64,000 bases of DNA from Octopus sinensis (taxonomy: Eukaryota): positions 94,178,001 through 94,242,000 of the forward strand of contig NC_042999.1 of NCBI RefSeq assembly GCF_006345805.1. The letters run 5' to 3'. Below are positions 2,075 to 55,260 of this stretch, piece by piece. Below the pieces are notes generated by a model, which ran no database searches, was not told the origin of the DNA, and saw only the letters and a list, made by a program, of their open reading frames with translations. Position 1 is the first letter of the stretch. Each line of letters starts with the position of its first letter. The translations under genes and the position numbers were made by a program.

Positions 2075-2498
2075 ATAGATGGCATTTATAATTGTTTTAT
2101 GAATTGCTACGCACGTTTCCACACGTCACATAGTCAGCATTCCTAAGATGATTACAATACAATCCGTAGTATCCATGAATATCGGTTAGATAATATTCAT
2201 GCATTCATTTCTTCAGGCGATGTGGCATTAATGTTGGAAGCGGCGAATGTATAACTGGCGGTTGTTAGTCAATTTTGACCAATGAAGATGTAGATTAGCA
2301 TATGCGAGCAGTTCTGTGTGTATTTATGCGGAGGAGTCGGAGCTAATTGGAAGAGAGAAAGGAATGCTACCTAAAAAGAAGACGTAGGTGTGTGTGGTGA
2401 TGTTAAAGTTATTTTGATTATTTAAGTATATGTCAGGATCGGTAGTATAGTTCGTTGCTTTGACCATAGCCACAGCAGGCGCCCCCTCAGTGAACTCA
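2075..2498 (-). mobile_element. Penelope-like terminal remnant
   Basis: Same layout as 54700-55260 with a long-stem-II hammerhead motif; bounded by (ATT)n. Coding similarity is weak. Confidence 0.55.
2103..2221 (-). ncRNA. Hammerhead motif with very long stem II region
   Basis: ATCGC CTGAAGA, about 90 nt including the CATGAATAT/ATATTCATG hairpin, GAAA CGTGCG TA GCAAT. Confidence 0.45.
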
Positions 2499-4119
2499 GA
2501 TTATTATTATTATTATTATTATTATTATTATTATTATTATTATTATTATTATTATTATTATTATTACACACACAGGGGAAAGTAAAGAAGCAGTAGTACA
2601 CGAATAAGGCGTGTAACATTTACACACATTAATAAACCTAAACCATATACTGATTTATGCGAGTTGCAGCGATAAGATTTTAAAATGGAGAGCAAAATAT
2701 ATTCAGCATCTGACGTGGTTAAAGACCCATGCTTGCCCACAGAAAAGGACACCATAGCCACTACTGCCATCAAACTATTGTACATACAATGCATGTTACA
2801 ACGCAGAATAGGAAACATTCATTCATACCTGAGGCAGAGCACAAGCAAAAAGGTATCTACATAGAAATATAGCCCGTGCAGAGATACACTTAGCAATGGA
2901 CGTTATGTTTTTTTATAGACAGAAAAGTATGAAATTGTGGTTGACAGACTTCCGTGAAGAAGTCATGCAATTAATCATTTGACACATACAAACTCAGGTT
3001 ATGGATAACACACTACTAATGCTTATAATAACAGAATACATAATCGGGAGATGCTATTTTAAAATCATGAAATACCATTCTTAAAGCAGACAGCATTATT
3101 AGCGCTGAGCCATCTATAAGAGCGCTAAAACTGGGAAAATGATAAACTGATATTCAGAAAAACTGTGAAGACTATAATATTCAAGCAAATTGACTGACTA
3201 CGTTTAACATTTATAAGAAGTAAAATATGTATATATAACACTTATAGGAAGTAAAATATGTATTTATAACGGATTAATGGCGTAGACATTTTATCAGTAT
3301 TGATATTGGAATGCCTTGAAGGAAATGTTTGATTAAAGTTAAAATATGATTACTAGTTTTTCTGACTTTTGAAATAATTTCCATGTATTTCTGAAAAACT
3401 CTCAAGCAGTTGTTTAGAAGCAACGAATAACGTCATTAACTCGTTGGCACAAAACTAACAGATACCTTTTAAAGGAGTTCGCAAATCGATTACATCAATT
3501 ACCATACTTACTTTTTTCATCAACCGAAAAGAATAACAAGCAAAGTTGAACTCATTGGTATTTAAAATCAAAGCTTAAAGAACTAGAAAAATGCCGATAA
3601 TTATTTTGTTCGAGGATAAACATTTTCCCGATATATATATATATATTGGAAGGTTTGGAGATGATGTACAGGTATTATTTCTTCTAATATATATATATAT
3701 ATATGTATATATATATATCCGTACACGCACATACATACACACACACACACAAATACACACACGCATAGAGAATAGACATGGGCGCGCGTATGTAGCGGTC
3801 AGTGTAGTTTTTGTATATATAACGGAATGGGGTGTATGACGGAATACGCAAGAAATTTATCTTCTACGTAGGTTTACATATATCATATCATAGCTTGATA
3901 CTGTATAGACAGAGATTCCCATTGACAGGTCGGTAACATTAAACCAATATTTATATACTAATATCAAGATTTAAATACTAATAATATGCAAGTTCTTTGC
4001 TTCAGTTCTCTAAACCTTCAAGATTTGTTTTTTACACAAACGAATGGTCCACCTTTTCCTGGGTTGAGAAACAAACAAGATTCGAAAATCGATTAAGGTT
4101 GTTCATCATACTTTCCAAA

Positions 4120-4235
4120 CTAGTGTATGTGTTTGTCACCCACCATCACTTGACAACCGATGTTGCTGTGTTAAGTTCCCGTAAATTAGCGGCTCGACAA
4201 AGAGACCGATAGAAAGTACAAGGCTTCCGAAGAAT
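4120..4235 (+). mobile_element. SINE family 1, 3' half fragment
   Basis: CCATCACTTGACAACCGATG...AGAGACCGATAGAA matches the reverse complement of 22710-22800. Confidence 0.7.
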
Positions 4236-4963
4236 TAATCATATATATATATATATATATATATATATTATATATATATATATATATATTATATATATAT
4301 ATACAGAGAGAGAGTGTGTGTGTGTGTGTATGTGTGTGTGTATGTGTGTGTGTGTTTGTATGTGTGTGTGTCTGTATTTGAAGTGGTGAAAGATATTGTA
4401 TATTAAGGAGGCAGTAGGATGTTTGGATAATTGTTTTTCCTTGCGCTTTCGTTCGTTTAACCGAAATCTTCAAGATAATAAAATCATCTTGATGAACTTG
4501 GTTACACGAAGGAAAGCGCTAATAAAGTATTATCCAAAATTCTGACTGCCTCCATCGTTATATTTATACATACAAACACACACATTCACGCACACACATA
4601 CACACACGCACGCACACACATACACACACACACATATATATATATATATATATAAACCTACACTTGTGTATATGTACACGTTGGTGCGTGTAGTCATACG
4701 TAATCTTTTTTCTAATATGTATGTTAATTTCTTTAATGCCAAACTGAGATTTAAAAAATATTTCATATCATGTCGAAATTCCAAACAGAATTTCTTTAAA
4801 AATCTTCTACATGCACCAACTGATGATCTAACTTTTAGACAAATACATACGGTTAGATTTTTTCTCAGCAATGTACAAGCTTCGTTGTTTCTTGAGAAGA
4901 ATCATCTATTGAAAAGTCAGAGAACTCAATATATTAACATCTATATTAAAAAATCTGGATATA

Positions 4964-5127
4964 GGCGTAGGAGTAGCTGTGTTATAAGTAGGACGCTTAC
5001 CAACAACATGGTTCTGGGTTCAGACTCACAGCGTGACACGTTGGGCAAATCCCTTGTGCTATAGCCTCGGACTAAGCAAAGCCTCATGAGTTGATTTGGT
5101 AGACGGAAACTGAAATAAGTCTTTCGT
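4964..5127 (+). mobile_element. tRNA-type SINE family 1, 5' half
   Basis: GGCGTAGGAGTAGCTGTG head, GGTTCAGACTC B-box-like motif, TTTGGTAGACGGAAACTGAAA block; homologous to copies at 9583, 14520 and 22616. Confidence 0.8.
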
Positions 5128-52985: not shown

Positions 52986-53211
52986 TTAGTCTGATTATTA
53001 ATTATATATATATATATATATATATATATATATATACACACACACATATGTATGTATGTTTGTATTTTATATATGTGAGTTTGTATGCATGCATTTAGAT
53101 ATATATATATATATACACACACACACACATGCATACGTACGTACACACATACATACGTACGTACACACATACATGCATATACACATATATAACACACATA
53201 CACACACACAC

Positions 53212-54413
53212 GTTAATAGGCTAACGAAGACTACTTCGCATGGGATGTGACCAAAAGAGATTTATTTTAAATATAATCATCTTTGCAGTCCGCACACTTC
53301 TTCCATCGGTGTTCAAGGACTTGCATCCCATTGGTGAAAATGGTGTTTTACTGCAAGTGAAAAAAATCAAAAACATCAGATATGACGTCATCATCACAGC
53401 AATATTGGTTCTCACCCAAGAGTGTTTTTTTAAATGATGGGGAACAGATGATAGTAAGATTGGTCTAAATCATAATAATAGGGAGGGTGATGAAACAGTT
53501 CAATATCACAGTCAAGCACGGCAGCCATTGAAACTAAGTTATTGTGTGTTGGAACATTGTCCTGATCACACAATGTTTTCATGTGCGTTTATTCTTGATA
53601 GCCTTTCGTAACTGCTGGTGTAGCCCTTTTGTCGATAGTCAAGAAACACAATACCTTTGTTACTCAGAAACACTGAGACTGTTAATTTGTCTGCAGGAGA
53701 AAGGACTGTGGCCTTTGCTAGCGGAGGCGACAGAGAGTGTTTCCACATCATGGATTGTCTCTTTGTGTCTGACTCAAAGTGATGTACCCAACTTTCATCC
53801 TGGGCTAGGAAACGTTCAAGGAAACCAGCAGTATCTGTCTCAAACATTGCCAGATTTTCCTACAATAAGATCAATGTGATGCGAGTTTGATCAGGTGGCA
53901 GAAGACCCTCATCACGCCAAGTTCGTTGTCCAGAATATTGTTAATTCTCTCACGAAAGATTGGCTATTCGATTTATAGATAATCAGTTGTCATCTATGAC
54001 TATGTAATAAACACCACCGAACTCGGTGGTGAAAGTAGCAAGGCGATCAGTTGTTGGCTCATCATCAAGATTCTCCTTTTTCTCCTCCTCACCTCAGCTG
54101 CCCACATTTGAATTGTTAATCGAGCTGAAGCGTCATCCCCTAATGTAGCAAACATATCAGTATGAATGTTGTTGAGCAATTCAATACTTTTACTGCAGAT
54201 AGTTGATAGCACAACGTGGCCAAATTTTGTCAATTTTCAAGAGAAATCTCCACTTGTTGCATTTGAAGGCTTATTTGAACAGTCATATTTCAGTTTACCT
54301 GGGAAGAAATAATACAGTTATAAATAACAAATGCTAAGTTAACGAATGCACGATTTCACTACTCTAGAATCATTTGTTCACAATCAACATATGAACATTT
54401 CAGCCCACCCTTG
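53212..54413 (-). mobile_element. Decayed mariner element
   Basis: ORF pieces LAQDESWVHHFESDTKRQSMMWKH, IHTDMFATLGDDA and GMQVLEHRWKKCADCKDDYI*; eroded TIR-like end at about 54385-54413. Confidence 0.88.
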
Positions 54414-54699
54414 AGTATGTGTAAATAAATTTATGTATGTATGTACGTACTTATGTGTGTGTATATATATATATATATAATATATATATATATATATATA
54501 TATATATATACACACATATATATATATACACATATGCGTGTGTGTATGTGGGTGGGTGTTTAGAGGGATCTATTATCGGAGCGGATACCGTGGTAGTTCT
54601 CGGGTATGCTTCGATTAGTATTAACGTCTATGACTACAAGGAGTTATCACTCACGCTGTAAATTTCTCCAATAGGTAATTCTGTGTCCGCTTCACTGGA

Positions 54700-55260
54700 T
54701 GGTAATATTATATGGATTGTATATTGTCAATAATTATAATGATAGCAAATGTGGAGACAGGCACATCCACAAGATGTATTTCGTTTTATTTTACAATATC
54801 ATATAAATATATTGTTATAGTTACGAGGACTTACACGTGTTTCCACTGCACAGAATGTACAGTTGCATATGCAGCATAATTTTCAGTGCGACCTCGTTTT
54901 GGGTCTTTCACTCTGCTTGGCTCGAAACGAACTGAATTCAGTTAATTTTTTTATTGTTTAGAGTTCAAGGGGAAGTGAGGGGAGGTAGTTTTGAATCTGA
55001 AATCTCATCTGTTAATAAACTTATATGATTGACCTCGATTCCACACCAGCTGCTAGCCAAAGTCAGCTTCTATCTAATTAGTTTGTTACTATTCTGTAGT
55101 AGATAGGTACATAATAAGTTTACTTTCAGGTATAACTCTTCTAATGTATTTTATTGTAGAGTGGTCCGGTTCCATGTTATGCTCTTAGTTATCCAGATAT
55201 TTTCGTGCCAGTTGTATTTATTATACTGAGTAGTAGAAACGGAAAGGAATATTTGTTGTG
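54700..55260 (-). mobile_element. Penelope-like element 3' remnant with terminal hammerhead motif
   Basis: Frameshifted HNKYSF...QLARK.W type motif near 55200-55260; hammerhead motif at 54823-54897. Confidence 0.65.
54823..54897 (-). ncRNA. Degenerate hammerhead motif with palindromic stem III
   Basis: ACGAGG..CTGAAAA..CTGCAT/GTGCAG..GAA ACACGTGT A..CCTCGT. Confidence 0.5.

What the first reader, a model, noticed from the sequence alone, without database searches (positions are those of the whole stretch)
2075..54897. Dispersed set of diverse hammerhead-bearing Penelope-type termini, many as short non-coding fold-back inserts beside (TA)n
Seen: hammerhead-like motifs (stem I, CUGANGA, stem II, GAAA, short or palindromic stem III, UH) at 2103, 13269, 20308, 51224/51489, 52039 and 54823, with partial ones near 4820, 5200 and 5470. 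Their stems differ in sequence, so they are different families converging on one fold. Established: PLE terminal repeats carry minimal type I hammerheads, and PLEs often have an inverted terminal copy at the 5' end. Inference: this genome carries many families of ribozyme-bearing PLE derivatives, some perhaps non-autonomous retrozyme-like units that accumulate at (TA)n.
Basis: partly seen in the sequence, partly recalled or inferred. Interest (0 to 1): 0.8.

Follow-up and report, generated by a model that had tools for sequence, protein, structure and literature searches.

The report
Hammerhead ribozymes on Penelope retroelement ends
The scattered motifs are the ends of seven families of Penelope-like jumping genes, each carrying a predicted self-cutting RNA and lying next to short TA-type repeats, which is a known arrangement; the one surprise is a very common family whose core has a change that would likely weaken cutting.

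Summary
Largely confirmed, but mostly known biology. The six main sites and the 'partial' site at 5200 are 3' ends of seven Penelope-like element (PLE) families. Each family majority sequence folds as a minimal type I hammerhead with a palindromic stem III, and families A and C show stem covariation. The site at 4820 is not supported. The site at 5470 is a PLE tail without a ribozyme. Five families lead upstream into PLE endonuclease coding sequence (two Neptune-type, three Hydra-type), so they are truncated coding elements. Two (A, C) are ORF-less 490-560-bp head-to-tail units, retrozyme-like. Most 3' ends abut (TA)n; family D abuts (TTA)n. Only 2 of 7 window copies are real fold-backs. Cervera 2014, Craig 2021 (including an octopus Hydra element at (TA)n) and Li 2026 cover the general picture. 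I found no report of two features: family H has U instead of A at core position 6 (16,721 exact genome matches against 209 with A), and family D has a 105-nt helix II. Cleavage is untested, and Lunse 2017 was unavailable. The scan noted the U3:A8 core before, in another genome.

The parts
2074..2429 (-). Family D: truncated 3' end of a Hydra-type PLE. Hammerhead 2103-2221 with intact CUGAAGA at 2216-2210, helix II region 90 nt here (105 nt in the family), stem III CGUGCG, predicted cut between 2108 and 2107. 3' end abuts a TTA/ATA repeat.
5173..5325 (+). Family H: 3' end of a very abundant Neptune-type PLE between two (TA)n tracts. Minimal hammerhead 5200-5235 with the family core CUGUNGA (U at position 6); this copy also reads GAAG for GAAA.
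5374..5528 (-). Family I: 3' tail of a young Hydra-type PLE (99% identical to other copies). No hammerhead in this copy.
13012..13629 (+). Family A: ORF-less unit in fold-back form (inverted arm 13012-13213, direct arm 13226-13510, tail to about 13629), (TA)n on both sides. Hammerhead 13269-13329, with C3 changed to A in this copy.
20269..20446 (+). Family C: internally deleted copy of an ORF-less unit of about 490 bp. Intact hammerhead 20308-20366; 17-nt inverted piece at its 5' side; (TA)n from 20447.
51062..51312 (-). Family B, left arm of the fold-back: 3' end of a young Neptune-type PLE. Hammerhead 51224-51263 with the U3:A8 core (UUGAAAA) and stem III CCGG.
51315..51649 (+). Family B, right arm: last codons of the GIY-YIG ORF, 3' UTR and hammerhead 51489-51528 (stem III palindrome broken, CAGG).
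51945..53000 (-). Family E: 5'-truncated Hydra-type PLE with a broken endonuclease region. Hammerhead 52042-52093 (stem III and UH decayed in this copy). (TA)n at both ends.
54558..55250 (-). Family F: 3' end of a Hydra-type PLE. Hammerhead 54828-54905; the family core has one extra base (CUGAACGA) and is decayed here to CAAAACGA; helix II region 57 nt in the family; 3' end at (TA)n.

Best explanation
These are the 3' ends of seven different Penelope-like retroelement families, each carrying a predicted minimal type I hammerhead ribozyme, that were likely pasted in beside TA-type microsatellites by the elements' own endonuclease and reverse transcriptase. Shown: the families, their hammerhead-shaped majority sequences, the upstream coding links of five families, the ORF-less tandem units of two, the microsatellite neighbours, two fixed 3' end points in several families, and inverted 5' arms. 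Inferred, step by step: (1) a GIY-YIG endonuclease nicks TA-rich DNA; (2) reverse transcription starts inside the RNA, 35-300 nt downstream of the ribozyme, at one of two sites, which gives the two 3' ends; (3) it reads through an uncut or re-joined ribozyme and usually stops early, or restarts on the other strand, which gives truncated copies, partial tandems and fold-backs; (4) the ORF-less units A and C borrow these proteins in trans; (5) the ribozyme cuts only slowly, as a dimer paired through the palindromic stem III and probably with protein help, trimming tandem transcripts. Most genomic copies, including five of the eight in the window, are decayed and would be inactive.
For: Family alignments give a full hammerhead for each family. 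Position 7, the free core position, is the most variable core base in A, C, D, E and H. Covariation: A, 4 pairs changed on both sides, 0 of 500 shuffles as high; C, 16 cells changed on both sides, 1 of 500. Flank scan: 19 motifs in 336 kb against 0 in each of 12 shuffles. Coding links: B has RT (Pfam RVT_1, E 4e-7), a CX4CxxC linker and GIY-YIG. H follows a CX4CxxC linker and GIY-YIG in L235, L204 and L206. D, E, F and I follow Hydra-type endonuclease ends (F in 8 of 12 loci). A and C: 28 of 30 copies picked by their 5' part run straight into the hammerhead, 19 of 30 and 14 of 30 are preceded by their own 3' end, the longest ATG ORF in four units was 60 codons, and the three PLE-protein hits in 120 loci were not linked upstream. 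3' ends at (TA)n: A 23/29, B 26/30, C 21/30, E 19/25, F 10/25, H 18/24, I 20/20, against 6-11% of random 44-mers; D at (TTA)n 16/25 against 1%. Published parallels: Cervera 2014, Craig 2021, Frangieh 2024.
Against: No cleavage or RNA-end data exist here; only contigs of runs guessed to be RNA were available. Covariation counts come from related copies, partly at CpG-prone sites, and for C the two measures that count pairs or types did not beat the shuffles (464 and 415 of 500). Pfam gave GIY-YIG only below its cut-off for B (E 0.011) and nothing for the E, I and H fragments; clade calls rest on motifs read by eye and on tblastn with my own family I fragment, with no tree. H (U6) and F (extra core base) fail the canonical core, and comparable changes had low activity in vitro (Perreault 2011). 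For six D copies the hammerhead-compatible monomer fold is 4-12 kcal/mol above the minimum. 5' ends do not pile up at the predicted cut site. No autonomous partner of A or C was found.
Confidence: 0.88

Rival explanations
1. The elements are as described, but the hammerhead fold is kept as a structure (a binding or folding signal for the PLE protein) or is a passenger, and cutting is dispensable, at least in H and F.
For: U6 is fixed in H: 16,721 exact matches against 209 with A and 466 with C or G, and the 12 A6 copies viewed resemble several subfamilies rather than one. All 24 assessable unselected H hits span the cut site. In vitro, ribozyme-dead Poseidon RNA still inserted, and no RNA-seq reads ended at the cut site (Frangieh 2024). 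Naiads spread without canonical hammerheads (Craig 2021).
Against: In H the other core positions, the ACGU palindrome and both stems stay fixed across subfamilies while only the two free positions (7 and 17) change, which looks like selection on catalysis. A6C and A6a variants kept low but detectable activity.
Confidence: 0.3
2. Families A and C are true non-LTR retrozymes that spread through small circular RNAs made by self-cleavage of tandem transcripts, and the partial tandems record reverse transcription running around the circle.
For: ORF-less head-to-tail units of about 555 and 490 bp with one hammerhead each; two hammerheads in tandem in 4 of 30 C loci and 1 of 30 A loci. This is the model of Cervera 2014 and 2020 and fits Li 2026.
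Against: No long arrays were seen. The ribozymes are of the minimal PLE type, not the canonical retrozyme type. Linear read-through RNA from a tandem explains the same partial tandems, as for coding PLEs. No circular RNA evidence could be obtained.
Confidence: 0.3
3. The motifs are chance matches in AT-rich repeat DNA.
For: Most window copies miss a core base, and loose descriptors find several hits in shuffled window sequence. This is the likely reading for 4820.
Against: Full cores in all seven family majorities; 19 against 0 in the flank scan; 460 against 8 for the D/F half-motif; 16,721 against 0 for H.
Confidence: 0.01

Closest known systems
Minimal hammerheads (min-HHR) of metazoan PLEs, Cervera and De la Pena 2014, PMC4209133
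   Same: Many divergent families per genome, mostly single motifs in truncated PLEs; palindromic or absent stem III; an unpaired base after position 9; the U3:A8 core (family B); pairs on opposite strands 100-700 bp apart (the fold-backs).
   Different: In the parts read there is no U6 core, no 105-nt helix II and no cephalopod.
Hydra-clade PLEs, including Hydra-1_Obim of Octopus bimaculoides, Craig et al. 2021, PMC8557442
   Same: Short C-terminal-endonuclease PLEs with CxCX5C, CxxC and CxH motifs, a hammerhead near the 3' end, unpaired bases on both sides of helix II, insertion at (TA)n (families E, F, I).
   Different: Family D ends at (TTA)n, while 26 of the 27 Hydra rows list (TA)n and one is blank. 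Helix II regions of 52-105 nt are far longer than in the listed Hydra motifs (about 10-30 nt). None of my families has the listed Hydra-1_oBim hammerhead sequence.
Neptune-clade PLEs
   Same: CX4CxxC linker before GIY-YIG, microsatellite targeting, hammerhead in the terminal repeat (families B and H).
   Different: H has U at core position 6 and a 3' UTR of about 600 nt. Neptune and Nematis were not told apart.
Non-LTR retrozymes (Cervera 2020, PMC7229834; Li et al. 2026, bioRxiv 10.64898/2026.07.22.740005)
   Same: ORF-less, head-to-tail, one type I hammerhead per unit, likely derived from PLEs (families A and C).
   Different: Dispersed monomers and partial tandems with PLE-style tails and inversions rather than long arrays; minimal rather than canonical ribozyme; circles not shown.
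Rare core variants A6C and A6a (Perreault 2011, PMC3088659); discontinuous Clec2 hammerhead (review PMC6155905)
   Same: A change at or after position 6 (H, F); a core split by a long helix (D).
   Different: Those were single rare examples, and the Clec2 insertion is in helix I of a type III motif. Here U6 is the founder state of a family with more than 16,000 exact copies, and D's insertion is in helix II.

Membership tests
Penelope-like element, C-terminal endonuclease type | RT followed by a GIY-YIG endonuclease in one ORF | tested here: met
   Family B: RVT_1 E 4e-7 above cut-off, GIY-YIG E 0.011 below cut-off but motif visible. For D, E, F, H and I only fragments were seen, with no Pfam hit for those scanned (E, H, I).
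Penelope-like element, C-terminal endonuclease type | RT groups with PLE and telomerase RTs in a tree | not tested
   No reference RT set was in hand.
Penelope-like element, C-terminal endonuclease type | 5' truncation, partial tandems, inverted 5' copy, terminal tail | tested here: met
   Inverted arms A 8/29, B 15/30 (query favoured them), C 21/30, D 7/25, E 2/25, F 11/25, H 0/24, I 10/20; two 3' end points in A, B, C and F; partial tandems in A and C.
Neptune clade (B, H) | CX2-5CxxC linker before GIY-YIG | tested here: met
   CX4CxxC in L054 and L235. Craig 2021 gives Nematis a similar linker, so the clade is not fixed.
Hydra clade (D, E, F, I) | CxCX5C linker; CxxC and CxH around the last endonuclease helix | tested here: met
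   CxCX5C in E; CxxC and CxH in D, F and I; read by eye in broken frames.
Hydra clade (D, E, F, I) | DKT and RWK motifs in the RT region | not tested
   No copy reaching that far was examined.
Hydra clade (D, E, F, I) | Insertion at (TA)n (nearly all families) | tested here: inconclusive
   Met for E (19/25) and I (20/20); partly for F (10/25, plus 10 at other microsatellites); D ends at (TTA)n in 16/25.
Type I hammerhead ribozyme | Core CUGANGA (or the U3:A8 pair), GAAA and UH in families A, B, C, D, E | tested here: met
   Family core plus GAAA intact in A 20/30, B 28/30, C 19/30, D 14/25, E 20/25.
Type I hammerhead ribozyme | Canonical core in families H and F | tested here: not met
   H has U6 (23/25; genome counts). 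F has one extra base, while two sister copies have the canonical core. Both are filed as hammerhead-like variants, not canonical members.
Type I hammerhead ribozyme | Three helices with compensatory change | tested here: met
   A; C met on three of five measures. Other families have complementary stems but were not counted.
Type I hammerhead ribozyme | Self-cleavage at the predicted site | not testable with these tools
   Needs in vitro assays or raw RNA ends.
Non-LTR retrozyme (A, C) | No protein coding | tested here: met
   Longest ATG ORF 60 codons in four natural units; no linked PLE protein in 60 loci each, some re-fetched.
Non-LTR retrozyme (A, C) | Two or more consecutive units, each with a hammerhead | tested here: inconclusive
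   C 4/30, A 1/30; the rest are monomers or partial tandems.
Non-LTR retrozyme (A, C) | Expressed as circular RNA | not testable with these tools
   Only contigs were available.

The most novel reading that the evidence does not exclude
One of this genome's most successful retroelement families (H) spread through at least four subfamilies with U in place of the normally fixed A6 of the hammerhead core while keeping everything else, and Hydra-type families stretch helix II to 50-105 nt. These would be natural, protein-dependent hammerheads with a relaxed core and a large inserted RNA domain, a class that standard descriptors miss, and a ready-made A6/U6 pair for testing whether PLEs need ribozyme cutting at all.
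Probability: 0.3. Interest if true: 0.6.

Novelty: new variant of a known kind. Interest (0 to 1): 0.35.

Why it matters
What hammerheads do in the PLE life cycle is still open: they are nearly universal in canonical PLEs, weak in vitro, and dispensable in the one reconstituted system. This genome offers a natural series to test that: canonical (A, C, E), U3:A8 (B), U6 at very high copy number (H), a one-base core insertion with a canonical sister (F), and a 105-nt helix II (D). It also holds two ORF-less units that look midway between a PLE terminal repeat and a retrozyme. If the flank density (about 50 intact motifs per Mb) holds genome-wide, there are of the order of 100,000 intact motifs; a 2026 octopus repeat annotation does not use the words hammerhead or ribozyme. 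The general picture is not new.

Tried and rejected
Rfam scan of the window: no hammerhead family among the 150 listed of 191 matches. Window-only descriptor scans: weak or null. The strict descriptor found only B(-) and one chance-looking hit overlapping C, and missed C and D themselves. 4820: no relatives, no GAAA, rejected. 5470 as a hammerhead: rejected. Other loose window hits (34375, 31674, 42511) had no relatives in 503 kb of loci, and 39102 belongs to a repeat with no hammerhead core. Idea that 5' ends or inverted arms stop at the cut site, as a trace of cleavage in vivo: no pile-up in H; 14 of 74 inverted arms start within 20 nt of the site but not on it, which stalling at the stems explains as well; not claimed. 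My first reading of F's upstream sequence as a Poseidon-type protein end was dropped after linked it to a Hydra-type endonuclease. The endonuclease hit in A locus L235 belongs to a neighbouring H copy. One search used a mis-indexed structure and is void; one search replaces it. RNA runs: no RNA holder listed; contigs of four runs guessed to be RNA cover parts of the A unit but cannot show ends, strand or circles. Papers not held: Lunse 2017 and Arkhipova 2017; Lunse's large set of PLE hammerhead variants may already contain U6 or long-helix forms. Not seen: bioRxiv supplements, Cervera 2014 supplementary file 1, and 58 of 59 parts of Craig's archive (word searches only). Searches for a prior report: 'hammerhead ribozyme' with 'A6U' listed 2 papers on other subjects, not opened; 'hammerhead' with CUGUNGA, CTGTNGA, 'U6 variant' or 'A6 substitution' gave 0; a long-helix search listed 9 papers, none by title on this, of which I opened one new one; 'hammerhead, Penelope, octopus' listed 4, one relevant.
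Full report
Setting. The window is G000:C3:94178001-94242000 of a 2.72-Gb genome. It is 33% G+C and full of (TA)n and related microsatellites. It looks like an octopus genome to me; that is recalled from genome size and repeat types and was not tested. The ORFs of 100 codons or more that I could recognise were repeats or transposon pieces; I did not work out the gene context.

Checking the observation. On the window alone the motifs are weak. A structural descriptor found 0 perfect motifs, and 5 loose ones against a shuffle mean of 0.97. 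Rfam listed no hammerhead among 150 shown of 191 matches. I therefore searched the genome with each site. Every main site is a repeat: first-look candidates were 387 (A, 13269), 1560 (B, 51224), 431 (C, 20308), 624 (D, 2103), 998 (E, 52039) and 223 (F, 54823), of which 40 were scored and 25-30 fetched each. The 5200 site (H) had 23 hits in 503 kb of loci already in hand. The 5470 site (I) had 1493 candidates. The 4820 site matched only itself.

Family motifs. A: stem I GCUACA/UGUGGC, CUGAAGA, stem II GAGA/UCUC, GAAA, CGCG, UC. B: UUGAAAA core, two-pair stem II, CCGG, UC. C: CUCUG/CAGAG, CUGAUGA, three-pair stem III. D: AUCGC/GCGAU, CUGAAGA, 105 nt, GAAA, CGCGCG, UA. E: GCGC/GCGC, CUGAAGA, seven-pair stem II, CUAUUAG, UA. 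F: GACC/GGUC, CUGAACGA, 57 nt, CACGUG, UA. H: CUUU/AAAG, CUGUNGA, an unpaired A, GAGC/GCUC, GAAA, CG, UH. Family I has a canonical motif with a helix II region of about 55 nt, but it lies upstream of the part present in the window. Exact window coordinates are; three of eight window copies keep all family core positions. Covariation was counted for two families. In A, all five measures beat all 500 shuffles. In C, three of five did (1 of 500), and the two that count pairs or types did not. Position 7 is the most variable core base in five families. In 336 kb of locus flanks a strict descriptor found 19 motifs (11 canonical, 6 U3:A8, 2 U6) against 0 in each of 12 shuffles. Two of the 19 are second arms of selected B copies; the rest include at least eight families not seen in the window, several with helix II regions of 50-65 nt.

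What the elements are. B continues upstream into RT, a CX4CxxC linker and GIY-YIG. H follows a CX4CxxC linker, GIY-YIG and a long 3' UTR. Both are Neptune-type by motif. E, D, F and I follow endonuclease ends with the Hydra motifs given by Craig 2021; for F, 8 of 12 loci hold both the endonuclease and the F end. A and C are different. Picked by their 5' part, 28 of 30 copies of each run straight into the hammerhead; 19 of 30 (A) and 14 of 30 (C) are preceded by their own 3' end; the repeat length is about 555 and 490 bp; four natural units hold no ATG ORF above 60 codons; and two hammerheads stand in tandem in 1 of 30 and 4 of 30. The A hit was a neighbouring H copy, and the C hits lie downstream of the unit. 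A and C are therefore ORF-less PLE-style units, with no partner found.

Insertion pattern. 3' ends abut (TA)n in 23/29 (A), 26/30 (B), 21/30 (C), 19/25 (E), 10/25 (F), 18/24 (H) and 20/20 (I), against 6-11% of random 44-mers from the same loci; D abuts (TTA)n in 16/25 against 1% (one A copy and two H hits were dropped because no flank or main hit could be scored). A, B, C and F each have two fixed 3' end points, 35-183 nt apart. Inverted 5' arms occur in 0-70% of copies by family; the B figure is inflated by my query, and the C figure includes short arms. In the window only A and B are long fold-backs. Of 26 unselected H hits, 24 extend across the predicted cut site; the other two are a hit cut by a locus edge and a probable mis-hit, and two of the 24 come from overlapping loci. 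So the copied RNA had an uncut or re-joined ribozyme.

The odd families. For H, exact genome counts of the 25-letter core-plus-stem-II pattern were 16,721 with U6, 209 with A6 and 466 with C or G, with 0 for the reversed control. All four bases occur at position 7 among the first 100 U6 matches, and position 17 varies too. Twelve A6 copies look like scattered changes in several subfamilies. U6 is thus the founder state. For F, two sister copies have the canonical seven-base core, so the extra base is derived. For D, the half-motif shared with F has 460 exact matches against 8 in the control, and most of the 30 fetched copies are D-like, with the upstream core at about 105 nt wherever the copy reaches that far. 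Three of six folded D copies form one long irregular hairpin there; the hammerhead-compatible fold is 4-12 kcal/mol above the minimum in all six.

Mechanism. Best reading: target-primed reverse transcription at TA-rich nicks, starting inside the RNA at one of two sites, reading through the ribozyme, with frequent truncation and inversion; A and C are moved in trans; the ribozyme cuts slowly as a dimer through its palindromic stem III, probably with protein help. The anatomy is shown here; every enzymatic step is inferred from other systems. In a fold-back the two ribozymes lie on opposite strands, so a transcript would pair one with its complement and would likely not cut (inference).

Comparison with print. 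Cervera 2014 (parts 1-2 of 4 read; supplement word search) describes many minimal hammerhead families per genome, the U3:A8 core, the unpaired base after position 9, opposite-strand pairs and weak dimer cleavage. Craig 2021 (passages, section 11, supplement searches and one part of the archive) describes inverted 5' copies, tails and (TA)n bias, and lists an octopus Hydra element with its hammerhead. Frangieh 2024 (passages) reports two internal start sites, a preference for AT-rich targets, protein-assisted cleavage, and insertion by ribozyme-dead RNA. Cervera 2020 (passages) and Li 2026 (parts 1-3 of 5) cover retrozymes as ORF-less PLE derivatives. Perreault 2011 (passages and section 8) reports U3:A8, A6C and A6a variants, the last two with low activity. 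Weinberg 2019 and De la Pena 2017 were seen as passages, as was the 2026 octopus repeat annotation. Lunse 2017 and Arkhipova 2017 were not held; I know them only from reference lists and recall. Searches found no report of a U6 core or a 105-nt helix II in PLEs.

Verdict. What may be new is a high-copy U6 core, a very long helix II, a (TTA)n-seeking Hydra-type family and two ORF-less units. New variant of a known kind; interest 0.35.

Noticed in passing
window 19830-20268 (+): Broken ORF ending in LKAQRLRRYDRRIKFYRQNKVF, which I recall as the region before the RT of Dong/R4-type LINEs; family C is inserted right after it. The label is recalled, not tested.
   Followed up: no
window 23019-24318: 1.3-kb repeat with inverted ends and a 276-codon mariner-like transposase frame on the minus strand. 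The label is recalled.
   Followed up: no
window 3631-3690 and 51720-51815: Short ends of another repeat family abutting (TA)n, the second as a small fold-back; no hammerhead found near 10 and 2 hits in the loci.
   Followed up: partly
window 21163-21225 (+): Short piece between microsatellites reading IEKHKPKL, like the end of the family B endonuclease; 10 hits in the loci.
   Followed up: partly
window 39051-39200: Small repeat with GAAA-CCGG but no hammerhead core in its relatives.
   Followed up: partly
window 4950-5125, 9885-10000, 12016-12162, 41935-42320: Abundant SINE-like repeats, often directly beside PLE ends and (TA)n.
   Followed up: no
L019, L028, L088, L155, L046, L066, L104, L108, L127, L267 (flanks): At least eight further hammerhead families, two with U3:A8 cores and three with helix II regions of 50-65 nt.
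   Followed up: no
L170, L171, L183 (family I): Inverted arms turn 2-9 nt from the predicted cut site, one exactly on the stem III palindrome; the palindrome may seed fold-back.
   Followed up: partly
window 50921-53000 and 4928-5568: Different PLE families and SINE-like repeats stack end to end through shared (TA)n tracts, so earlier insertions may create targets for later ones.
   Followed up: no
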